Below are positions 15,354 to 63,703 of a DNA stretch of 64,000 nt, one piece after another. Below the pieces are notes generated by a model that was given only the letters and a program-made list of their open reading frames with translations, searched no databases and was not told the origin of the DNA. How positions within the stretch are numbered: position 1 is the first letter of the stretch; each line of letters opens with the position of its first letter. Origin of the DNA: an uncultured Bacilli bacterium (GTDB lineage: Bacteria > Bacillota_I > Bacilli_A > RF39 > UBA660). The stretch lies in assembly GCA_947632355.1 (NCBI GenBank), contig CANROY010000001.1, positions 2,040-66,039 on the forward strand, given 5' to 3'. A program made the position numbers and the translations under genes.

Positions 15354-15388
15354 AAAATGATTCCACTGATAAGCAAAATCATTTTATT
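15354..15388. repeat. ~34-bp element (copy 2) at the 3' end of the collagen-like gene
   Basis: See 11685..11718. Confidence 0.6.
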
Positions 15389-16413
15389 TTTTGAATAAAA
15401 ATCGTGACGGCTTGACTTGCAAAAGAAGATTCCGTATTTAATTCATCAATGCTTGGACTTGTTACAATAATCGGATACTTTCCGGTATTTATAATTTCAA
15501 ACCATTCATTTGGTGTAGTTAAATTCACGTATCCTGTTGCAACAAGTAGAGTTGGTGTATTGGGATTTCCAATAACGGAATTGCCAACATAAATTGTTGG
15601 TTCTTCTACAATTCCTACTTTTTTAAGACCAACTGAAATAACATTATAACCAGGTTGGGCACTCACATTTACCGTTGTTTTCGCTTGTACTAAAATATCA
15701 ATACGATAAATCCCAGGATTATAAAAAGTTAAGGTACTATTACGGTCGCTAAAGTAGTAATTGTTATCGGTATCTAATGTTTCTATCGCAATAGGAATGG
15801 AATAACCAGGCTTTACTTCTGTTCCATTTGGTTCAACATCTTCACTTGTGGTAATAAACATAGCAGATGGGATAGAAAGAGGTCCCGGAATTCCTTGTAC
15901 TCCCTGTTCTCCTTTTGGTCCTTGTGCTCCTGTTTTTCCGGTGGGTCCGGTAGGTCCTTGTTTTCCTTCAGGACCCGTTGGTCCAATACTTCCTTGTGGT
16001 CCACGAATCAAACCAACATTTTGCCAAGTTCCTGTCTCCTCCGACCAAACATATAAATATTCTCCAACCAAATAAGAATTTCCTTCTTCTCCTTTGGGAT
16101 GATTTTTTTCAAGTTCTGAAAAAGTATCAAAGTAGCCTAGAATCGTAACACTAGTTCCATCTTTTCCACAAGGTCCCGTTGGACCCATACTACCTGTTGC
16201 TCCAGATTCTCCTTGAGGTCCCTGAGGTCCCATTTTTCCTTCCGGTCCGGTTGGACCCATACTACCTTCTTCTCCTCTTGGTCCTTGTGGTCCTTGTGGA
16301 CCCATAGGTCCCGTTGGCCCTGTAATCGAACGAATACTTGTATAAACAAGAGGTGTTTTTTGTCTTTCCCTCACCTCTTCTACTTTTCTTAAGGCTTTTT
16401 CATAAGGATTCAT
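15379..16413 (-). CDS. Collagen-like triple-helix repeat surface protein with C-terminal globular domain (BclA-like architecture)
   Basis: Two Gly-X-Y blocks ([19 protein letters not shown]...; [28 protein letters not shown]...) separated by a ~45-aa spacer; ~170-aa non-collagen C-terminal domain; RBS GAGGAGG. Confidence 0.85.
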
Positions 16414-19644: not shown

Positions 19645-19932
19645 ATGGCAAGTTCAACTAGTACTATAAATGTACAAGTAGATACAAAAACGAAAAAGGA
19701 AGCATCTAAAATCTTAAAAGATTTAGGTTTAAATATGAGTACTTTTATTAATATGGCATTAATACAAGTCGTAAAAAGAAATGACATTCCTTTTGAAGTA
19801 GAAAATCCAAAACCTAGTAAAGAACTTTTGGAGGCACTAAAAGAAGGTGAAGATATTCTAAATGGAAAAATTAAAACCAAAAAATATCATAGTGCTAAAG
19901 AGTTATTTGAAGATTTAGAAGATGAATCTTAA
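19645..19932 (+). CDS. RelB/DinJ-family antitoxin (orphan, no adjacent toxin)
   Basis: Paralogue of dinJ at 29516..29836 (STNTIISVQIDKKDKEQATKIL vs STSTINVQVDTKTKKEASKIL); RBS AAGGGGG. Confidence 0.65.
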   Translation: MASSTSTINVQVDTKTKKEASKILKDLGLNMSTFINMALIQVVKRNDIPFEVENPKPSKELLEALKEGEDILNGKIKTKKYHSAKELFEDLEDES

Positions 19933-25418: not shown

Positions 25419-26297
25419 TTGATTATAATAAATATTTTATCTTTTAGCAAGGGGGAATGTATATTGAAAACGAAAGAAATAAGATATTTAAAAGATGAGT
25501 ATGCAAAAAAACTATTAAAGGAAGAAGATTGTAAGGAATATGTTGCTAGTATTATTGCTTCTGTCTTAGATTTACCAAAAGACTATGTAGTAAATAACCT
25601 AAAACTATTGAATAATGAAATTAATATCAATGAACATGTAAAGAACCAAGAAGCCGATGCTGTTTTTGATTTAGATGAACATATCGTAAATATTGAGATT
25701 AATTATAACAATAGTATAGAGTTGCAAACTAAAAATACTGGCTATATTGCACAACTCTATCTAACTCAAATTAAACCTGGAGAAAACTATCCCAAAATTA
25801 AACCGATTGTCCAAATAAACCTGAACAACTATGATGTATTTAATAAAAATGAATTTATCTATCATAGTGTTGTAATGGAAACAAAACATCACATCATTCG
25901 TAACAAAGATATTGAAATCTTTGATATAAATATAGATTTATTAAATGAAATCGATTATAATGAAATTGAGAAATTAAATGAAAGGGATTTAAGATGGCTT
26001 TTATACATCTTTGTATGTGGAGATAAAAGGCTACGAGAAGAGGTTTATGGGGAGAGTGAAATGATGAAGAAGGTAAATGACAAAATAGATAACTATCAAG
26101 CATTTCTAAATCAATGGTTATACTATGACAAAGAATATCTTGATAATTGTGGTTTTGAAGAGTTAGGTAGACAAAAAGCAAAAAAAGAAACAGCAAAGAA
26201 ACTCTTACAAATGAAACTAGGAACTGCCGAACAAATAGCAGAAGCAACAGGTTTAACACTAGATGAAATAGAAGATTTAAAAAAGGAAAAAGATTAA
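25419..26297 (+). CDS. Rpn-family recombination-promoting nuclease/putative transposase (PD-(D/E)XK, YhgA-like); start probably TTG at 25464
   Basis: Paralogue of 41704..42534 (identical C-terminal TAKKLLQMKLGT.EQIAEATGLTLDEIEDLKKEKD); RBS AAGGGGGA before TTG 25464. Confidence 0.75.
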   Translation: MIIINILSFSKGECILKTKEIRYLKDEYAKKLLKEEDCKEYVASIIASVLDLPKDYVVNNLKLLNNEININEHVKNQEADAVFDLDEHIVNIEINYNNSIELQTKNTGYIAQLYLTQIKPGENYPKIKPIVQINLNNYDVFNKNEFIYHSVVMETKHHIIRNKDIEIFDINIDLLNEIDYNEIEKLNERDLRWLLYIFVCGDKRLREEVYGESEMMKKVNDKIDNYQAFLNQWLYYDKEYLDNCGFEELGRQKAKKETAKKLLQMKLGTAEQIAEATGLTLDEIEDLKKEKD

Positions 26298-28517: not shown

Positions 28518-29057
28518 CTAAAGTCCTCTAATAAATATTTGACCACTTATTGCTTTTCCCATATCACCACTTTGGTCTTCACTTGTATTTTGATATGTAA
28601 TCGTTAATTTATAATTCTTTGTTTCACCATTTTTTACGGTAACTGAATTTTTACTTAAATCAGCACTAGCCTGAGTACCACTTGGAAACTGTCCATCACC
28701 AATTTGTTGATTTTCCTCAGTTAATACGTAAGTAATATCTTCTGGATGAGTAAAGTCATTTTTTAAATTCAATACCGCAATATAAAAACTCAAATCAGGT
28801 CCATTATTCGTAATTGAAAATGTTTTTTCAAATGTATCTCCAGGTATCATTGTTACAGTAAGAGCACCATCATCTTTTAATGTTGTTTCTACTTTTGCTG
28901 TTACGTTATTGACTTCAACGGTATCACCTTCAGTGTTTGTTTTTGCAGTATAAAAAGCATAACTTGCTGCAGATATTGCTGCTATAAATACTATCACTGC
29001 TACTATTGATATAATAAGAGTTTTTTTATTGTCTGACATATAATCACCCATTCTCAT
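28518..29057 (-). CDS. TasA/camelysin-family secreted protein with SipW-cognate-type signal peptide
   Basis: Signal ...AAISAASYAFYTAKTN; IPGDTFEKTFSITNNGPDLSFYIAV matches the TasA KPGDKLTKDFQFENNGSL region; C-terminal DQSGDMGKAIS motif shared with 32601..33485. Confidence 0.65.
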   Translation of the reverse strand: MRMGDYMSDNKKTLIISIVAVIVFIAAISAASYAFYTAKTNTEGDTVEVNNVTAKVETTLKDDGALTVTMIPGDTFEKTFSITNNGPDLSFYIAVLNLKNDFTHPEDITYVLTEENQQIGDGQFPSGTQASADLSKNSVTVKNGETKNYKLTITYQNTSEDQSGDMGKAISGQIFIRGL

Positions 29058-29208: not shown

Positions 29209-29541
29209 TTAATTTTGTTTATGTAATATTTCACTATGACTACCTGTATTAATTAATAAGAGTATTATTTCATCATCTAAATACTTGTATATTAGTAACC
29301 AATCAGGTTCTATATGGCAATCTCGACAATCTTTAAATCGTTTATCATTATATAAAGAATGGTCTTTGTATTTTGCATCAAGCAATTCTTTATTCGCTAA
29401 TTTTTCAATAACTAGTTTTAATTTATTTATATCTTTCCCCTGTTTCAATATTTTTTTATAATTCTTTTTAAAATCATTTGAATACTTAATTTTATATTTT
29501 GTTTTTAAATCAAAATTAGTCTTCACTATCCAAAGCCTCAA
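29209..29541 (-). CDS. yafQ: Type II toxin YafQ/RelE family (start possibly GTG ~29526)
   Basis: KIKYSNDFKKNYKKILKQGKDINKL..YKDHSL...CRDCHIEPDWLLIYK matches YafQ motifs. Confidence 0.8.
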   Translation of the reverse strand: MRLWIVKTNFDLKTKYKIKYSNDFKKNYKKILKQGKDINKLKLVIEKLANKELLDAKYKDHSLYNDKRFKDCRDCHIEPDWLLIYKYLDDEIILLLINTGSHSEILHKQN

Positions 29542-29836
29542 ATAATTCTTTTATAGTATTATAGCTTTCATATTTTTCAGGGTGTTTTTCCATATTTTTA
29601 AGTTCTTTTGCCATAGCATCTAGTTCTTTTTTTGAAAAATATTTAGAAATATTATTTTCTTCTGGTGAAAGTGCAATTTCAAATGGAATACGCTTTTTCA
29701 TAATAACTTGTTTGATTGTCATATTTATTAATCCACTTAAAGAAACACCCAACTTTTGTAAGATTTTTGTGGCTTGTTCTTTATCTTTTTTATCAATTTG
29801 AACACTAATTATAGTATTAGTACTTGCCATAAACAT
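29516..29836 (-). CDS. dinJ: Type II antitoxin DinJ/RelB family
   Basis: Upstream of and overlapping the yafQ-like toxin; DinJ-like N-terminus TNTIISVQIDKKDKEQATKILQKLGVSLS. Confidence 0.8.
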   Translation of the reverse strand: MFMASTNTIISVQIDKKDKEQATKILQKLGVSLSGLINMTIKQVIMKKRIPFEIALSPEENNISKYFSKKELDAMAKELKNMEKHPEKYESYNTIKELFEALDSED

Positions 29837-30134: not shown

Positions 30135-30945
30135 TTAATCTGCAGCAAGAGTAGTATAACCTGAACCTGCAGCAACATCTAATTTAACAGATATATCCTT
30201 ACCACTATCTTTAGATGTTTGATCAGTTTGTGCATTTGGATATTTTACTACTAAATAATATACTTTTGAACTTTCTCCATCTTTAGTATTTAAAGTTCTT
30301 CCACCTAAATTATTTTGTTTAATTTTTGTTTTGGCCTCTTTCAAAGGATCACTAGTTAAAGTACCCTCTTCTTCACTGTACTTAATGCTATTATCAGTAC
30401 TTTGAGTATTTTTGTCAATTTTTTGGCTTTCTTGTCCATTTTTCAAATCTCCATAAGCTATCAATTCACCATTAGCACCTTGAACAGCACTTCATATAGA
30501 TTCTGCATCACAACATTCTCCCGTATTATAAATATCACTAGTATTTCCTTGATCTGCATACCAATAATATATATTTGGTCCAACCGTTTGTTCTTTTAAT
30601 GAACAAGTTGTTATTTTATCAAATCCACCAGCATCTGTTGCAACAGATAAATCACCAATCTTAGATTTTATCATCCATAATTCCCACTCTAAATCAGTAT
30701 TTGTTAAATTGGTATAAGTGATTTTTAAATTAAAAGTTCCTTTATAATCATTTGCATCAGTACGTTCTTGTTTCGAAATTGTAGCTGTTGCTTCATAGAT
30801 TCCTAATCCTCCGGGATAATCTAACATATTTAATACTTCACCTGTACTAGTAAAGTTTAAATTTGCTCCATTCATTTTTTGAGTAGTTGTATTAGCTGAA
30901 CTACTTGCTCCCTCAGTTTGAGTTGATGCTACAAAGTATGCGAAA
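30135..30945 (-). pseudogene. 5'-truncated, promoterless, nonsense-containing mosaic duplicate of the TasA-like gene 32601..33485
   Basis: 30563-30945 is ~99% identical to 33027-33410 but the match stops exactly at the FAYF signal-peptide motif (no signal, start or promoter). In-frame TGA at 30489-30491 (AESI*SAVQG). The 3' half (30135-30560) is only ~70% identical, giving a diverged C-terminal domain. Confidence 0.7.
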
Positions 30946-32600: not shown

Positions 32601-33485
32601 TTAATCTTCAGGTGTATATAATACTGAATTTCCTTCTCCATCAATTTCAAGTTTAACACTAATTGCTTTTCCAGCATCGGTAGATTGGTCATCTTTATTA
32701 TTTGGATATTTTACTACTAAGTAGTATACTTTAGAATCTTCACCTGTAGTAGTATTTAAAGTTCTTCCACCTAATTGATTACTAGTAATTCCCTCTTTTT
32801 CTGACTTTATAGGGTCACTACTATCACTAAGAGTTTCTCCAAACTTAATTCCTGATTCATCTCCATTAGTAGAACTACTAGTAATAGCTTTATCTGTTTG
32901 TCCATGTTTTAAATCTCCATAGGCAATTAATGAACCACTAGCATCTTTAACAGCATTTCTGATTGCTTCCGCATCACAACGTTCTCCTGCATTATAATTA
33001 TCATTTGGATCGCTAGCATCTGCATACCAATAATATGTATTTGGTCCAACAGTTTGTTCTTTTAATGAACAAGTTGTTATTTTATCAAATCCACCAACAT
33101 CTGTTGCAACAGATAAATCACCAATCTTAGATTTTATCATCCATAATTCCCACTCTAAATCAGTATTTGTTAAATTGGTATAAGTGATTTTTAAATTAAA
33201 AGTTCCTTTATAATCATTTGCATCAGTACGTTCTTGTTTCGAAATTGTAGCTGTTGCTTCATAGATTCCTAATCCTCCGGGATAATCTAACATATTTAAT
33301 ACTTCACCTGTACTAGTAAAGTTTAAATTTGCTCCATTCATTTTTTGAGTAGTTGTATTAGCTGAACTACCTGCTCCCTCAGTTTGAGTTGATGCTACAA
33401 AGTATGCAAAGGTTGCTCCTACAACTGATACTAATAAAGTAGCGATTGCTATTACTGTTAGTAATATTGTGTTTCTTTTTTCCAT
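32601..33485 (-). CDS. TasA/camelysin-like secreted protein with SipW-cognate class signal peptide (VVGATFAYF)
   Basis: N-terminal TM plus GATFAYF motif characteristic of SipW-processed proteins; paralogous to 28518..29057 and to the pseudogene copy 30135..30945. Confidence 0.65.
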   Translation of the reverse strand: MEKRNTILLTVIAIATLLVSVVGATFAYFVASTQTEGAGSSANTTTQKMNGANLNFTSTGEVLNMLDYPGGLGIYEATATISKQERTDANDYKGTFNLKITYTNLTNTDLEWELWMIKSKIGDLSVATDVGGFDKITTCSLKEQTVGPNTYYWYADASDPNDNYNAGERCDAEAIRNAVKDASGSLIAYGDLKHGQTDKAITSSSTNGDESGIKFGETLSDSSDPIKSEKEGITSNQLGGRTLNTTTGEDSKVYYLVVKYPNNKDDQSTDAGKAISVKLEIDGEGNSVLYTPED

Positions 33486-41703: not shown

Positions 41704-42534
41704 ATGATTACAGAACAAAAAGTATTATTAAAAGATGAATTTGCTAAAAAAATATTTCGTAGTGAGGATTGTAAGGAATATGTTGCTAGTGTTATTGCAG
41801 TACTCTTGCATCTAAAAAAAGAAGATGTCATGAACAATTTAACCCTTATTAATCCAGAAGTAAATGTAAATAAAAATGTAAAAAATCAGGAAGTTGATGT
41901 TATTTACGATACAAAAGAAAACTATGTCAATATCGAAATCAATTATCGAAATAGTCAAGATTTACGAATCAAAAATAATGCCTATATCGCGCAACTTTAT
42001 TTAAAACAAATAAAGCCAAAAGAAAAATACCAAATCAAACCTATTGTCCAAATCAATATTAATAACTATGACTATTATAAAAAGAAAAAATTTATCTATC
42101 ATAGTGTTGTAATGGAAGAAGAATATCATATAGCAAGAGATAAAAATATTGAAATCTTTGATATAAATGTAGATTTATTAACGGAAATCGATTATAATGA
42201 GATTGAAAAGTTAAATGAAAGGGATTTAAAGTGGCTTTTGTATATCTTCGTATGTGGAGATAAAAGGCGACGTAAAGAGGTTTATGGTGAAAGCGAAATG
42301 ATGAAGAAAGTGAATCAAAAGGTTGAGAGTTATGATGATCCATTAGATGCCTATTTATTTTATGATAAAAAGGCAATGGATGAAGCAGGAATAAAGCAAA
42401 TGATTGTTGATGATACTCATAAAGAAACAGCAAAGAAACTCTTACAAATGAAACTAGGAACTGATGAACAAATAGCAGAAGCAACAGGTTTAACACTAGA
42501 TGAAATAGAAGATTTAAAAAAGGAAAAAGATTAA
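41704..42534 (+). CDS. Rpn-family recombination-promoting nuclease/putative transposase (paralogue 2)
   Basis: ~60% identical to 25419..26297 with an identical C-terminal 35 aa. Confidence 0.8.
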   Translation: MITEQKVLLKDEFAKKIFRSEDCKEYVASVIAVLLHLKKEDVMNNLTLINPEVNVNKNVKNQEVDVIYDTKENYVNIEINYRNSQDLRIKNNAYIAQLYLKQIKPKEKYQIKPIVQININNYDYYKKKKFIYHSVVMEEEYHIARDKNIEIFDINVDLLTEIDYNEIEKLNERDLKWLLYIFVCGDKRRRKEVYGESEMMKKVNQKVESYDDPLDAYLFYDKKAMDEAGIKQMIVDDTHKETAKKLLQMKLGTDEQIAEATGLTLDEIEDLKKEKD

Positions 42535-58579: not shown

Positions 58580-59443
58580 CTAATTCTCTTCTACTACTTC
58601 TTCAGTAGTCTCATCCGTTTGTTCTTCAGTAGTTTCTTCTGCTACTTCTTCTGTTTCTACAACTTCTTCTGTACTTTCTGTAGTTGTCTCTTCTGTAGTT
58701 TCAGTTTCCGTTGTTGCTTCATTTTCCGCTGTTACTTCTTCTGCTTGCTCTTTTACTTCTTCCACTTCATCTACAACTGTTTCTTCTACATAAGAAAGTA
58801 TTTCGAAATCATTTTTCTTCTTGTTATTCTTAATAGCAGATTTAATTAAAACTAATGAATTTTTAGGTCCAGGAATATTTCCACTAACCAAAATATAATT
58901 TTCATTCTCATTTACTTCAACAATTTGTAAATTTTGAATGGTAATGGTTTCATTTCCCATATGTCCTGGTAAGTTTTTACCCTTTAATACTCTTTTTGGT
59001 AACATGGTACCTAATGAACCAGGTCCTCTATGATAATGAGATCCATGTCCCATAGGTCCACGGTTTTGATTGTGTCTTTTAATAGCACCTGCAAAACCTT
59101 TACCTTTTGAAGTACCCGTAACATCAACGATTTCTCCTACTTCAAAAATACTTGCGCCGATTTGTTGTCCAATGGTATATTCACCATCTACATTTCTTAA
59201 TTCTTTTAAGAAGCGCTTAGGGGTTGTATTTGCTTTTTTAGCATGGCCAATCTCTTGACGAGTGGCATTTTTTTCTTTTTTGTCTACTACGCCTAATTGA
59301 ATTGCATTATAGCCATCACTTTCAACAGTTTTTACTTGCATAACTACGTTTGGAGTTACTTCAACAACTGTTACAGGAATTAATTGTCCATCTTTAGTGA
59401 AAACTTGTGTCATTCCAATTTTGCGTCCTAAGATTCCTTTCAT
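58580..59443 (-). CDS. rplC: 50S ribosomal protein L3 with ~75-aa acidic E/T-rich C-terminal extension
   Basis: Canonical L3 core (~210 aa) followed by [67 protein letters not shown]. Confidence 0.9.
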
Positions 59444-59773: not shown

Positions 59774-59906
59774 TTATGATGTCCTCCTTTCGCCTATATC
59801 TTGTATAGACTTGCTCCGTACAAATTCCCTGAATTTTAGATTTTGTTTTAACAACTCAACCTAGTGTATCAGCAACCTCGCACATCTAAGCCGTCATACA
59901 TTTTTC

Positions 59907-59935: not shown

Positions 59936-59984
59936 GCCCAAATTTTCCAAAATTTTTACTTTTAAATTAGAATAAAAAAGAATA

Positions 59985-60341
59985 TCAATCTTGATACCCT
60001 TTGGTTTTATAATTTGCACATTTGATATACCCTTTATAATCATATACAGTACCTTTTTTGAGAACAGTAGCATATCCTTCACAAACTTCATCATTCACTT
60101 CTAAAGAATCTAAATACCCATTGTCAATTAAAGTAGATGCCTTTGTTTTTACTATTTCATTTTGTTCAGGATACAAAAATTTTTCATCCACATAGCGATC
60201 TTCCGCTACTACCAATTTACTTTCTAACTCTTTATAAACTTGTGTTTTCTTTTTATACAACAATCCAAAAATAGTTAAAAGTATAAATAAACCAACCACA
60301 AGCAGTCCCCAAATGACATACATTCTCTTCATTTTATTCAT
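59985..60341 (-). CDS. Small membrane-anchored Cys-containing protein (paralogue 3 of cassette); start ambiguous (60341/60347)
   Basis: N-terminal TM; C-terminal module VCEGYATVLKKGTVYDYKGYIKCANYKT shared with 60334..60783. Confidence 0.6.
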   Translation of the reverse strand: MNKMKRMYVIWGLLVVGLFILLTIFGLLYKKKTQVYKELESKLVVAEDRYVDEKFLYPEQNEIVKTKASTLIDNGYLDSLEVNDEVCEGYATVLKKGTVYDYKGYIKCANYKTKGYQD

Positions 60342-60783
60342 TTTCACCTATTCTCCAATTTTGAAATTCATTTGTTTTATAATTCGTACATTTTATATAG
60401 GCTTCTATTTCATAATCTTGATTTTCTTTTTTATAAACTAAAGCATAACCATCGCAAGAATCTTTATCACTTGTTATTAAATCACTATCTTCTAACAAAT
60501 GAGTATAAATTAAATTACTTGTTGGAATGGTTACAGTACCACTAATGCGATCATCATAATATTTTTGCATATAGGTAAGAGTTGCTTCACGTATTTTATT
60601 TTCAATAGAGGTATATGTAATATTTTCTTTTATACTTTCATTATTTGTTTGTGTAGAAGGTTTTATTGTATTTTCCCTTTTAAATTGAAAAGCATAAAAA
60701 ACAACAAAGAAAAGTGCGATTATTAAAATTGCACTAAAGATAATCATTTCACTTAAGCCCCAACCATTATTATTTAATTTCAT
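60334..60783 (-). CDS. Small membrane-anchored Cys-containing protein with prepilin-like N-terminus (MKLNNNG/WGLSE..., E at +5)
   Basis: RBS GGTGA; class-III-signal-like N-terminus; C-terminal SCDGYALVYKKENQDYEIEAYIKCTNYKT module with a Cys pair. Confidence 0.6.
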   Translation of the reverse strand: MKLNNNGWGLSEMIIFSAILIIALFFVVFYAFQFKRENTIKPSTQTNNESIKENITYTSIENKIREATLTYMQKYYDDRISGTVTIPTSNLIYTHLLEDSDLITSDKDSCDGYALVYKKENQDYEIEAYIKCTNYKTNEFQNWRIGENE

Positions 60784-60836
60784 TTAAATCACCACTAGTA
60801 CTTTATTATATACTATGATTTTAGAAGAAGCAAATA

Positions 60837-61100
60837 TTAATCACATTGTCTTTCTTGAATAAAGAATGGACCAAATTCCGTTGCTTTTAAGCATTCACGA
60901 TTATAAGTGATTGTTTTATAGCCAAAGCCATTACAAATAGTATTAGAGCCATCTGCATAATCTTTAACTTGTTCTGATAAACAATAAAGAGGTTTATCAC
61001 CATTTTTAACTCTAAAATAATCTACAAATACCATTATAATCCATAATAAAATTAATAATAAAACCACAACTTTTAAAATCGTTATTATAACTTTCTTCAT
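60837..61100 (-). CDS. Small membrane-anchored 4-Cys protein (paralogue 1 of cassette); start ATG 61100 (track's GTG 61109 lies in the RBS)
   Basis: RBS AGGTGA 6 nt before ATG; N-terminal TM; CLSEQ...ICNGFGYKTITYNRECLKA...QCD. Confidence 0.6.
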   Translation of the reverse strand: MKKVIITILKVVVLLLILLWIIMVFVDYFRVKNGDKPLYCLSEQVKDYADGSNTICNGFGYKTITYNRECLKATEFGPFFIQERQCD

Positions 61101-61117
61101 ATTCTTCACCTATTGTA

Positions 61118-61146
61118 ATTATATAAAATTAATCTTCTAAATTCAA
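61118..61146 (-). promoter_or_regulatory. Promoter TTGAAT-17-TATAAT for the small-protein cassette (minus strand)
   Basis: Consensus-like hexamers; TSS predicted ~10 nt before the start codon (very short leader). Confidence 0.55.
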
Positions 61147-61162
61147 TACAGAATTTTAAAGC

Positions 61163-61192
61163 CAAAAAAAAGAGTAGTTTTTCTACCCTCTT
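61163..61192 (-). terminator. Terminator downstream of rplL
   Basis: AGAGGGTAG..CTACTCT imperfect hairpin followed by T8 on the minus strand. Confidence 0.5.
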
Positions 61193-61194
61193 TG

Positions 61195-61566
61195 TTAAGC
61201 AAGTTCGATTTCTGCTCCAGCTTCTTCAAGTTGTGCTTTAATTTGATCTGCTTCATCAGCAGGAATGTTTTCTTTAACGTTTCCACCGTTATCAGCTAAA
61301 GCTTTAGCTTCAACAAGTCCAAGTCCAGTAATATCTTTTAATAATTTAATAACTTGGATTTTGTTTCCACCAGCACTCTTTAATACAACAGTTTTTGTAC
61401 TAGAACCAGCGTCTTCAACTGCTCCAGCAGCAGGTGCAGCAGCAACTGCTACAGCCGTAGGATCAATTCCTAATTCCTCTTTCATTCCATCAACTAGTTC
61501 TTTTACTTCAAGAATAGTCATTTCTTTTAAAGCACTTATAAATTCATCTTTTGTTAATTTTGCCAT
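61195..61566 (-). CDS. rplL: 50S ribosomal protein L7/L12
   Basis: Sequence and synteny. Confidence 0.95.
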   Translation of the reverse strand: MAKLTKDEFISALKEMTILEVKELVDGMKEELGIDPTAVAVAAAPAAGAVEDAGSSTKTVVLKSAGGNKIQVIKLLKDITGLGLVEAKALADNGGNVKENIPADEADQIKAQLEEAGAEIELA

Positions 61567-62079: not shown

Positions 62080-62239
62080 ATTTCCTCCTTTTATATTTTT
62101 GAAATAGAAAAGCTCTTTTATGGGAAAAAGAGCTTATAAACATAAGTTACTTACTTTTCCCTCGGTAGGATTATTAAGATTACTCCCCTACTGTCTTTGG
62201 TAATCGGCTTTTCTATTACGTATTATATTAAATAATCCC
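62080..62239 (-). promoter_or_regulatory. rplJ 5' leader (expected L10(L12)4 autoregulatory leader region)
   Basis: 160-nt GC-enriched untranslated region between rplA and rplJ, as in other Firmicutes; structure not verified. Confidence 0.4.
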
Positions 62240-62993: not shown

Positions 62994-63599
62994 TTATTCT
63001 TCTGTTGCAGTTTCTTCTGCAGCTTCTTCAGTAGCAGTAGGAACTTCTACATTTCCACTAGCAAGTTCTTTTGCTTCTTCTTCCATTTCTGCTAGTTCTT
63101 CATCACGTTTCGCCATTTCTGCTTCATGTTCTTGTGCTTCTTTTGCTTGTTCAGCAAGTTCAGCATCATTTAAACCTTTAACAGCAATACCCATATTTCT
63201 AGCAGTACCAGCAATAATGTTCATAGCAGCATCTACATCATAAGCATTTAAATCAGGTAATTTAGTTTCAGCGATTGCTTTTAAATCATCCTTTGAAATT
63301 GTAGCAACAATTTCATTGGCACCTTTTTTACTACCTTTTTGTATCTTGGCTGCTTTTTTAAGTAAGAATCCTGCAGGTGGAGTTTTTATAACGAAATCAA
63401 AACTTCTATCTTCATAAACAGATATTTCAACCGGTAAAACATCTCCCATTTTGTCTCTTGTTTGTTCATTAAAACGAGTACAAAAATCTTGAATGTTGAT
63501 ACCAACTGGACCTAAACATGTTCCAACGGGTGGAGCAGGTGTAGCCTTTCCAGCTTCGATTTGTAATTTTACTCTCTTTACGATTTCTTTTGCCACGAA
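62994..63599 (-). CDS. rplK: 50S ribosomal protein L11 with ~55-aa acidic C-terminal extension; GTG start 63599
   Basis: RBS AGGAGGTG then GTG ([12 protein letters not shown]...); canonical L11 core then [58 protein letters not shown]. Confidence 0.9.
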
Positions 63600-63703
63600 A
63601 AACACCTCCTATAAAAATATTTCTCGTTAGTGGTATAGGGCAAATCCGCTCTTCCCTCCCACAAACTATGCAATACAACATAATATATGCAATTGCACTT
63701 AAG

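What the first reader, a model, noticed from the sequence alone, without database searches (positions are those of the whole stretch)
59985..61146. Three-gene cassette of paralogous small Cys-containing membrane-anchored proteins inserted between rplL and the S10 operon
- In place of rpoBC, which is absent from this window, the L7/L12 gene is followed by its own terminator and then a consensus promoter (TTGAAT-17-TATAAT) with an ~10-nt leader.
- Three small ORFs (87, 149 and ~118 aa) follow; genes 2 and 3 overlap.
- All three have one N-terminal TM helix and an extracytoplasmic C-terminal module with a conserved Cys pair. The C-terminal modules are:
  - protein 2: SCDGYALVYKKENQDYEIEAYIKCTNYKT;
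  - protein 3: VCEGYATVLKKGTVYDYKGYIKCANYKT;
  - protein 1: ICNGFGYKTITYNRECLKA.
- The middle protein has a prepilin-like N-terminus, MKLNNNG|WGLSEMIIFSAILIIAL: Gly at -1, Glu at +5, and a 20-aa hydrophobic stretch.
- A C-terminal disulfide loop is typical of type IV pilins and pseudopilins.
- The family is uncharacterised, and its placement inside the most highly expressed operon block is unusual.
Basis: partly seen in the sequence, partly recalled or inferred. Interest (0 to 1): 0.55.

Follow-up and report, generated by a model that had tools for sequence, protein, structure and literature searches.

The report
Divergent pilin-like gene cassette beside rplL
Between the L7/L12 gene and the S10 ribosomal operon sits a small, self-contained three-gene unit whose middle and last genes encode an unannotated, very divergent family of type IV pilin-like membrane proteins that is conserved at this ribosomal-gene junction across a whole lineage of uncultured gut Bacilli.

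Summary
The described sequence features are real: an rplL terminator, a consensus promoter, three small minus-strand genes (A 87 aa, B 149 aa, C 118 aa) with B and C overlapping, and no rpoBC in the window.

Only B and C are paralogues (BLASTP E = 4e-10). A is an unrelated small membrane protein with one transmembrane helix.

B belongs to a large unannotated family (884 clusters at 50% identity). Its N-terminus is strongly conserved: MKLNN[KRHN]G|WGL-x-(E)-M. Three lines link B to type IV pilins:
- A profile-profile comparison with genuine N_methyl pilins of the same lineage gives 88% probability, E = 3e-6.
- A few members hit ComGE/ComGF models below threshold.

Pfam N_methyl and Foldseek find nothing.

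The [A]-B-C unit usually lies between rplL and rpsL, the slot normally occupied by rpoBC. In some clades B is reduced to a 38-60 aa peptide with no head domain. These keep the leader and GWG but never Glu/Asp at +5.

No pilus machinery lies nearby, and I could not search the rest of the genome.

Best reading: a new, divergent pilin-like module, probably processed by a prepilin peptidase. Whether it forms a filament is open.

The parts
61167..61193 (-). Intrinsic-terminator-like hairpin plus T-run directly after the rplL stop codon (61195). It closes the L10 leader-rplJ-rplL unit.
   Evidence: 11-pair stem with 3 G-C pairs, followed by TTTGGCTTT. In related loci rplL is also usually followed by a hairpin plus T-run.
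61118..61146 (-). Sigma-70-type promoter of the cassette: -35 TTGAAT (61146-61141), 17-nt spacer, -10 TATAAT (61123-61118).
   Evidence: (10 of 12 matches) and sequence. In this AT-rich stretch the number of such matches equals the shuffle expectation (11 found, 12.3 expected), so position is the main argument. A similar promoter was found in 12 of the 35 distinct rplL-to-cassette spacers examined.
60837..61100 (-). Gene A: an 87-aa protein with one transmembrane helix. Its family motif is D-Y-F-R-x5-P-x2-C ... C-x-G-x-G-Y-K. The SD AGGTGA lies at 61111-61106.
60334..60783 (-). Gene B: a 149-aa prepilin-like protein.
- Leader: MKLNNNG, residues 1-7.
- Putative cleavage site: after Gly7.
- Mature N-terminus: WGLSE(+5)M.
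- Hydrophobic helix to about residue 38, then a disordered linker (39-56).
- Helix 57-75, then a small beta domain.
- Cys110 and Cys132 lie at the two ends of the 109-132 beta hairpin.
59985..60341 (-). Gene C: a 118-aa paralogue of B. It has an uncleavable-looking signal anchor (…MYVIWGLLVV…, with no Gly at -1 and no Glu at +5) and the same C-x-G-Y … C-x-x-Y-x-T ectodomain. Its start overlaps the end of B by 8 nt, which suggests translational coupling.
   Evidence: E = 4e-10 against B; hit by the B-family HMM at 2e-19; Cys pair kept in C-type sequences.
59977..60002 (-). Weak terminator-like hairpin overlapping the stop codon of C, running into a U-rich tract.
   Evidence: -9.2 kcal/mol, z = -2.8, 4 of 200 shuffles fold as well. 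It was not called by the consensus scan, which requires 3 G-C pairs.
59790..59896 (-). Context: an S10-Clostridia-type ribosomal leader upstream of rpsJ, with promoter-like sites at 59949-59907. It marks the start of a separate S10 transcription unit downstream of the cassette.
   Evidence: 27.1 bits, below the gathering score of 35.1, E = 0.014. (promoter-like sites). (the spacer folds at z = -2.75).

Best explanation
**What it is.** The cassette is its own transcription unit and encodes a small membrane-anchored module built around a very divergent type IV pilin-like pair.

**The three proteins**
- B is a member of the type IV pilin superfamily. It is inserted with its N-terminus in the cytoplasm and its C-terminal domain outside.
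- I infer that a ComC/PilD-type prepilin peptidase, encoded elsewhere, cleaves its short conserved leader (MKLNN+G) after the invariant Gly. The mature protein would then start W-G-L-x-E-M.
- C is B's paralogue. It keeps the same small ectodomain with its conserved Cys pair on an ordinary uncleaved anchor. It is probably made in step with B through the overlapping start and stop.
- A is an unrelated small accessory protein with a single membrane helix.

**How it most likely works.** B, together with C and where present A, acts like a minor or tip pseudopilin set (GspI- or ComGG-like). This would be a small complex at the membrane surface, or at the base or tip of a Com-like type IV filament, rather than a major filament subunit.

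**Shown:** gene structure, paralogy, family size, motif conservation, homology to pilins, synteny.

**Inferred:** topology, cleavage, disulfide formation, complex formation, any filament.
For: **Link to pilins**
- N-terminal statistics over 137 family representatives: Gly-1 100%, Trp+1 93% (otherwise Phe), Leu+3 64%, Glu+5 45% with Asp 9%, Met+6 73%, leader 5-8 aa. This fits the published class III signal peptide definition (PMC7212644).
- hhalign of 129 B sequences against 13 genuine N_methyl pilins from the same lineage gives 88% probability, E = 3.1e-6. It spans 87 columns: leader, transmembrane helix, the following helix and the first strand. Each half alone still scores weakly.
- The best PDB sequence hit is Geobacter pilin domain 1. 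NNKGWGLKEMLI aligns to NKKGFTLIELLI, E = 0.029.
- NCBIfam ComGE, ComGF, ComGD and ComGC models hit 10, 6, 3 and 3 of 129 members, all below threshold.

**Evidence that a peptidase may exist in the lineage**
- A canonical prepilin (KKGFTLIEL…, PF07963) is encoded on the same contigs as a B-C pair (L066, L088). Its cleavage motif is invariant across homologues. This suggests a peptidase in at least that clade.
- 88.7% of sequenced Bacilli carry a Com system (PMC7212644).
- Variable Glu5 is normal for tip or minor pilins. ComGG lacks it and escapes InterPro and PilFind.

**Evidence that it is a functional unit**
- The A-B-C order recurs at 27-50% identity in different genomic contexts.
- The family has 884 clusters at E <= 1e-3.
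Against: - In the model the transmembrane helix is separated from the head by a low-confidence linker of roughly 18 aa. Classical pilins have one continuous ~50-residue alpha1 helix.
- The leader residues Asn-3 and Asn-4 are about 80% conserved, which is unusually high for a pilin leader.
- Glu5 is absent in more than half of the family.
- Clades where B is a 38-60 aa peptide with no head keep MKLNN+GWG but have Glu/Asp at +5 in 0 of 19 cases, against 27 of 44 full-length B. Selection therefore acts on the leader and transmembrane segment independently of features that build filaments.
- No assembly ATPase, platform protein or prepilin peptidase was found in the 64 kb window. A regex scan for the PilB Walker A motif and the A24 peptidase GxGD-K motif found none in about 0.9 Mb of related loci.
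- The placement next to housekeeping genes with a consensus promoter is unlike competence-regulated comG operons.
Confidence: 0.45

Rival explanations
1. A pilin fold put to a new use. B and C descend from pilins but no longer enter a filament. They form a static complex of single-pass membrane proteins (with A) that has a housekeeping role in the envelope or cell surface and is expressed constitutively beside the ribosomal operons. The leader and GWG motif are kept for processing, or for a contact within the membrane, and not for polymerisation.
For: - Forms of B with no head domain retain the leader, GWG and the transmembrane segment but never Glu/Asp+5.
- The ectodomain can be lost entirely while C remains.
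- A flexible linker of variable length, often rich in N, S and T, separates the transmembrane helix from the head.
- The unit has its own consensus promoter and sits among housekeeping genes.
- No pilus machinery lies nearby.
Against: - An invariant Gly-1 and a conserved short leader are most simply explained by peptidase recognition, which in known systems primes assembly.
- Glu5 is still present in 61% of full-length B in the loci.
- No positive evidence points to any particular housekeeping role.
Confidence: 0.3
2. A decaying remnant of a comG-type operon. The genes are leftovers of pilin genes that once lay next to rpoBC and no longer have a function.
For: - Weak hits to ComGE/GF/GD/GC.
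- Loss of A, of C, or of B's head in various clades.
- In L082 a mini-B follows rpoC directly.
- From memory only, not verified here: in streptococci the comG/comY operon lies just downstream of rpoBC.
Against: - The reading frames are intact, with motifs conserved at the protein level, across 884 clusters down to about 25% identity.
- Synonymous codons vary at the conserved Leu and Gly positions. This count is biased by the search pattern used.
- The Cys pair is conserved in both paralogues.
- This pattern is purifying selection, not decay.
Confidence: 0.05
3. Not related to pilins. The proteins are generic small single-pass membrane proteins, and the N-terminal resemblance to prepilins is convergent or due to chance.
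For: - Curated pilin HMMs and Foldseek give no hit.
- Trp at +1 and Gly at +2 are atypical.
- Profile hits to transmembrane segments are prone to compositional bias. PsbH and PsaK appear in the same result lists.
Against: - The hhalign match continues collinearly beyond the transmembrane segment into the ectodomain. The ectodomain alone gives P = 6.7e-4.
- The motif positions (-1 Gly, +1 aromatic, +3 Leu, +5 Glu, +6 Met) coincide with those of class III signals.
Confidence: 0.12
4. A strain-specific insertion of hypothetical or mobile genes, or a phage or defence cargo.
For: - Own promoter and terminator.
- No functional annotation.
Against: - Conserved across many divergent genomes at the same junction.
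- No PHROGs or PADLOC hits.
- No mobility genes next to it.
Confidence: 0.02

Closest known systems
Com pilus minor pilins of Bacilli (ComGD/GE/GF/GG, especially ComGG)
   Same: - Small (about 100-150 aa) monoderm pilin-like proteins with a short leader and an N-terminal hydrophobic helix.
- ComGG also lacks Glu5 and escapes InterPro and PilFind (PMC7212644).
- A few B members give sub-threshold hits to ComGE/GF/GD/GC models.
   Different: - Not in a comGA-G operon, and no ATPase or platform gene nearby.
- The leader ends in Gly and is followed by W-G-L, not F/T-L.
- Scores are below the curated cut-offs.
- The location beside ribosomal genes with a consensus promoter is not a competence regulon setting.
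GspI/EpsI/XcpV minor pseudopilins of type II secretion
   Same: - They share the architecture of a small helix plus a three-stranded sheet.
- They act in a heteromeric tip complex with partner pseudopilins, as B-C(-A) might.
   Different: - T2SS belongs to diderm bacteria.
- B has a flexible linker between the transmembrane helix and the head.
Geobacter PilA-N / PilA-C split pilin
   Same: - It gives the best PDB sequence hit to the B profile (9egp_A).
- Some clades carry a 38-60 aa B that is only leader plus transmembrane helix, followed by a separate gene (C) that encodes the head-like domain. This is reminiscent of a short pilin plus a partner gene. The Geobacter parallel is from general knowledge.
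   Different: - C has its own membrane anchor.
- B forms without a head lack Glu5.
- No evidence of filament formation.
- The taxa are unrelated.
Canonical N_methyl prepilin of the same lineage (orphan gene between secG and rnr; L066 18952-19401, P0197-P0210)
   Same: - Homologous to B by profile-profile comparison (88% probability).
- Similar size, Cys-containing head, and an I-T-L-x-x-L-I-x-x-G-hydrophobic strand.
- It too is scattered among housekeeping genes with no machinery nearby.
   Different: - It has the textbook KKG|FTLIEL motif and is recognised by PF07963.
- B has NN+G|WGL-x-E/x-M and is not recognised.

Membership tests
Type IV pilins (class III signal peptide; IPR012902 / PF07963 N_methyl / TIGR02532) | [quoted passage not shown] | tested here: met
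   The window's B has leader MKLNNNG. Gly-1 is present in all 137 representatives carrying the motif, and the leader is mostly 5-8 aa. Definition from PMC7212644.
Type IV pilins (class III signal peptide; IPR012902 / PF07963 N_methyl / TIGR02532) | About 21 mostly hydrophobic residues after the cleavage site, with Glu at +5 | tested here: inconclusive
   The window's B has WGLSE(+5)MIIFSAILIIALFFVVFY, so it meets the feature. Across the family Glu+5 is 45% and Asp 9%. It is 0 of 19 in B forms that lack the head domain.
Type IV pilins (class III signal peptide; IPR012902 / PF07963 N_methyl / TIGR02532) | Recognition by the curated family models | tested here: not met
   No PF07963 or TIGR02532 hit for the window's B even at E <= 1. 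Neither model is among the 25 most frequently matched families listed for the 129 relatives. Pfam Class_IIIsignal hits 4 of 129 at E >= 0.17.
Type IV pilins (class III signal peptide; IPR012902 / PF07963 N_methyl / TIGR02532) | Detectable homology to genuine pilins | tested here: met
   hhalign of A2 against A6 gives 88% probability, E = 3.1e-6, over 87 columns. The split halves give P = 3e-4 and 6.7e-4. The best PDB sequence hit is a pilin at E = 0.029.
Type IV pilins (class III signal peptide; IPR012902 / PF07963 N_methyl / TIGR02532) | Lollipop fold: an extended alpha1 helix of about 50 residues packed on an antiparallel beta-sheet | tested here: inconclusive
   [not shown]
Type IV pilins (class III signal peptide; IPR012902 / PF07963 N_methyl / TIGR02532) | Processing by an A24 prepilin peptidase encoded in the genome | not testable with these tools
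   None found in the 64 kb window or in about 0.9 Mb of related loci by motif scan. The rest of the genome could not be reached. Indirect support: a canonical prepilin with an invariant cleavage motif lies on the same contigs as B-C in one clade.
Type IV pilins (class III signal peptide; IPR012902 / PF07963 N_methyl / TIGR02532) | Genomic association with an assembly ATPase and a platform protein | tested here: not met
   Neighbours are ribosomal-protein genes in nearly all loci. No PilB/ComGA Walker motif was found in the held loci. Presence elsewhere in the genome is not testable.
Com pilus minor pilins (NCBIfam ComGD, ComGE, ComGF) | Score above the curated cut-off of the equivalog models, and location in a comG operon | tested here: not met
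   None of these models hits the window's B. Only 10, 6 and 3 of 129 relatives hit ComGE, ComGF and ComGD, with a best E of 1.7e-5. The gene is never in a comG operon.
   B and C are related: E = 4e-10. A shows nothing against B or C: E of 9 or more, hhalign probability 3%.

The most novel reading that the evidence does not exclude
The conserved element may not be a pilus subunit at all. It may be the leader-GWG-transmembrane segment of B, which survives as a 38-60 aa peptide with no head domain in several clades. That would make the family a new class of prepilin-peptidase-type substrates, or small membrane peptides derived from pilins. It would have a constitutive, non-filament role in the envelope of these uncultured gut Bacilli. 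It would also be genetically fixed to the rplL/rpoC-rpsL junction, where it has outlasted rpoBC itself.
Probability: 0.25. Interest if true: 0.7.

Novelty: new variant of a known kind. Interest (0 to 1): 0.5.

Why it matters
- **A blind spot in pilin detection.** Type IV pilin-like proteins are found mainly through the N_methyl signature. This family is widespread in uncultured gut Bacilli (884 clusters at 50% identity) and is invisible to that signature. Pilin inventories, and by extension estimates of competence or adhesion potential, are therefore probably understated for these organisms.
- **A processing signal uncoupled from filament features.** The motif G|WGL-x-E/x-M and the variants of B without a head domain appear to separate the processing signal from the residues that build filaments.
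- **An unusual genome arrangement.** A membrane-protein cassette sits in the slot between rplL and rpsL that normally holds rpoBC. This is a useful synteny marker for the lineage. It also raises the question of why these genes stay linked to the translation-gene cluster.

Tried and rejected
- **Family libraries.** Pfam and NCBIfam on the three proteins gave only transmembrane noise. PHROGs and PADLOC gave nothing, so phage or defence cargo is rejected.
- **Fold searches.**
  - Foldseek of the B model against the PDB gave no hit with E < 0.5.
  - The afdb50 library was unavailable.
- **Machinery in the window.** A Pfam scan of the larger ORFs between 1 and 46 kb found no pilB, pilC, pilD or com genes. 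Five large ORFs in that stretch were left out of the scan. Regex scans for the PilB Walker A motif and the A24 GxGD-K motif across 0.9 Mb of held loci found none. These loci all cover the same genomic neighbourhood, so this is weak evidence.
- **Reaching the rest of the genome.** Look-ups of rplA and the ABC-transporter ATPase returned only short metagenome contigs. The neighbours of its homologues showed no machinery.
- **Literature.** Searches on RF39 with pili or competence, and on comG adjacent to rpoC, were uninformative. The streptococcal "comG downstream of rpoBC" parallel therefore rests on memory only.
- **Alignment too diverse.** A related-loci scan with the full 129-sequence alignment failed for lack of a conserved stretch. 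It worked with a 16-sequence subset.
- **Leader-peptide idea.** I considered that B's N-terminus acts as a translational arrest or leader peptide for rpsL. I rejected this because the conservation lies at the N-terminus, not the C-terminus, of the mini-ORFs, and full-length forms carry a folded ectodomain.
Full report
**Observation**

The region reads on the minus strand. Going downstream, the order is rplK, rplA, an L10 leader (Rfam RF00557, 78 bits, 62097-62218), rplJ, then rplL (61195-61566).

After rplL come these elements:
- A terminator-like hairpin with a T-run at 61193-61167.
- A TTGAAT-17-TATAAT promoter at 61146-61118.
- An AGGTGA Shine-Dalgarno, then the ATG of gene A at 61100.

The three genes are:

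| Gene | Coordinates | Length |
|---|---|---|
| A | 60837-61100 | 87 aa |
| B | 60334-60783 | 149 aa |
| C | 59985-60341 | 118 aa |

- Public gene calls on near-identical contigs give the same lengths.
- B and C overlap by 8 nt.
- A weak hairpin with a U-tract overlaps C's stop codon.
- A sub-threshold S10-Clostridia leader (27.1 bits) and promoter-like sites precede rpsJ.

The cassette is therefore its own unit, sitting between two ribosomal-protein units that each have their own regulation. It is not inside either one. No rpoB or rpoC is present in the window: the largest ORF is 717 aa, and tblastn with an RpoC fragment is negative.

**Relationships among the three proteins**

- B and C are paralogues: BLASTP E = 4e-10, collinear over the transmembrane helix, the following helix and the C-x-G-Y … C-x-x-Y-x-T domain.
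- A is not related to either. BLASTP is non-significant, and hhalign of the two families gives 3% probability.
- A's family motif is D-Y-F-R-x5-P-x2-C … C-x-G-x-G-Y-K. Only the first Cys pair is general; the second is specific to the window's clade.

**What B is**

No curated model hits it, and public records call relatives "hypothetical protein". An exhaustive HMM search finds 884 cluster representatives at E <= 1e-3.

The N-termini of these relatives are strikingly uniform:
- Consensus: M-K-L-N-N-[KRHN]-G | W-G-L-x-E-M-[IL].
- Gly-1 is invariant.
- Trp+1 is 93%, otherwise Phe.
- Glu+5 is 45% and Asp 9%.
- Met+6 is 73%.
- Leaders are 5-8 aa long.

This matches the published definition of a class III signal peptide. 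The same paper notes that the minor pilin ComGG lacks Glu5 and escapes InterPro and PilFind (PMC7212644).

Independent support for a pilin relationship:
- The best PDB sequence hit of the family profile is a pilin N-terminus (Geopilin, E = 0.029).
- ComGE, ComGF, ComGD and ComGC models give sub-threshold hits to a minority of members.
- The B profile also picked up a textbook prepilin (MNNKKGFTLIEL…, PF07963) on a contig that carries its own B-C pair (L066).
- hhalign between the two families gives 88% probability, E = 3.1e-6, over 87 collinear columns that extend into the ectodomain. Both halves contribute.
- The AF2 model of B (pLDDT 76) has a transmembrane helix, a disordered linker, a second helix and a small sheet. 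Cys110 and Cys132 lie at the two ends of the 109-132 beta hairpin.

I conclude that B, and by paralogy C, belong to the type IV pilin superfamily as a divergent family not described before. C has an ordinary anchor without Gly-1 or Glu+5.

**Genomic context across relatives**

MAGs labelled uncultured Bacilli or "Tenericutes" and Candidatus Ventrenecus, plus 70 metagenome contigs, carry the unit.

Among 52 loci with distinct B sequences:
- rplL lies just upstream in 34.
- rpsL lies just downstream in 29.
- Neither is adjacent in only 3.

The modal order is rplK-rplA-rplJ-rplL-[A]-B-C-rpsL-rpsG-fusA-tuf, which is the slot that normally holds rpoBC. In one contig, rpoC is still there and a mini-B follows it (L082). 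So the family's home is the junction between rpoC/rplL and rpsL.

The window is a rearranged variant. The str operon (rpsL-rpsG-fusA-tuf) is elsewhere and the S10 operon follows directly. Where the cluster is broken, A-B-C stays together (L004, L005, L007). rplL is generally followed by a terminator-like hairpin, and often by a promoter.

The makeup of the unit varies between loci:
- A is present in about a third of loci.
- C is absent in some.
- In 15 loci B is cut down to a 39-66 aa peptide consisting of leader plus transmembrane helix.

A separate scan shows these forms (38-60 aa) keep MKLNN+GWG strictly but have no Glu or Asp at +5 (0 of 19, against 27 of 44 full-length). The sample was gathered with B's N-terminal motif, so the apparent universality of B is partly a result of how the loci were collected.

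**Machinery**

- A Pfam scan of the larger ORFs in the rest of the window shows no PilB/ComGA, PilC/ComGB, PilD/ComC or other com genes.
- Motif scans of about 0.9 Mb of related loci find none either. These loci all cover the same neighbourhood.
- The canonical prepilin of the lineage is itself an orphan gene between secG and rnr.
- Its cleavage motif is invariant across homologues, and 88.7% of sequenced Bacilli carry a Com system. Both make a prepilin peptidase plausible. I could not search the rest of these genomes.

**Mechanism**

Best-supported reading (confidence about 0.45):
- B is a prepilin-like protein cleaved after Gly7.
- With its uncleaved paralogue C, and with A where present, it forms a minor- or tip-pseudopilin-like complex at the membrane surface or on a Com-like filament.

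Main rival (about 0.3):
- The pilin fold has been put to a new use. It forms a static membrane module that is expressed constitutively.
- The forms of B with no head and no Glu5, the flexible linker and the housekeeping setting all favour this.

Rejected or unlikely:
- A decaying comG remnant is unlikely given the purifying selection.
- A strain-specific insertion is refuted by the synteny.

**Novelty and score**

This is a new, unannotated variant within a known superfamily. It has an unusual signal motif and an unusual, deeply conserved chromosomal position. It is moderately interesting (0.5). It would be more so if the leader-GWG-transmembrane peptide proves to have a function that does not involve a filament.

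Noticed in passing
window 62994-63605 (-) and 58580-59443 (-): Ribosomal proteins L11 (200-203 aa) and L3 (287 aa) carry long, very acidic C-terminal extensions of roughly 60 and 75 aa, rich in E, A and T. The same L11 tail occurs in L004, and L11 is 196 aa in L010 and L013. This looks like a trait of the lineage.
   Followed up: partly
window 62097-62218 (-) and 59790-59896 (-): An L10 leader (RF00557, 78 bits) lies upstream of rplJ. An S10-Clostridia-type leader lies upstream of rpsJ but scores below threshold (27.1 bits against a gathering score of 35.1).
   Followed up: yes
window 32601-33485 (-), 28518-29057 (-), 30135-30875 (-); L005 6987-8225, L006 6288-8273, L007 3158-4639: - Secreted or surface proteins here have N-terminal anchors that resemble, from memory, SipW/TasA-type signals (…GATFAYF…, …SYAFYTAKT…, …LYK[ST][FY]ALY…). 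No family model was run to test this.
- The two ORFs at 30135-30875 repeat parts of 32601-33485, so they look like a fragmented paralogue.
- Large proteins with the same kind of signal sit just upstream of the cassette in several relatives.
   Followed up: no
L066 18952-19401; L086 10001-10423; L088 10001-10411: A textbook N_methyl prepilin (KKGFTLIELIATI…, about 140 aa, Cys-rich head) is encoded as an orphan gene between secG and rnr. It lies on the same contigs as a B-C pair, with no pilus machinery within 10 kb.
   Followed up: partly
L082 331-1397: In this contig the 3' end of rpoC is followed directly by a 49-aa mini-B, then mscL on the opposite strand, then rpsL. This shows the family also exists where rpoBC keeps its usual place.
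   Followed up: partly
window 25419-26297 (+) and 41704-42534 (+): Two paralogous genes of the PD-(D/E)XK transposase (PDDEXK_2) family. Only the first scored in Pfam. The second was recognised by its near-identical N- and C-terminal sequence.
   Followed up: no
window 15379-16413 (-): A protein with collagen triple-helix repeats (G-P-x tracts), 344 aa.
   Followed up: no
window 29209-29836 (-) and 19645-19932 (+): A RelB/YafQ toxin-antitoxin pair, and a second, lone RelB-family antitoxin gene.
   Followed up: no
L090 123-932: In a near-identical metagenome contig the gene upstream of rplK is an unannotated 269-aa ORF. In more distant relatives (L010, L013) secE-nusG occupies that position.
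   Followed up: no
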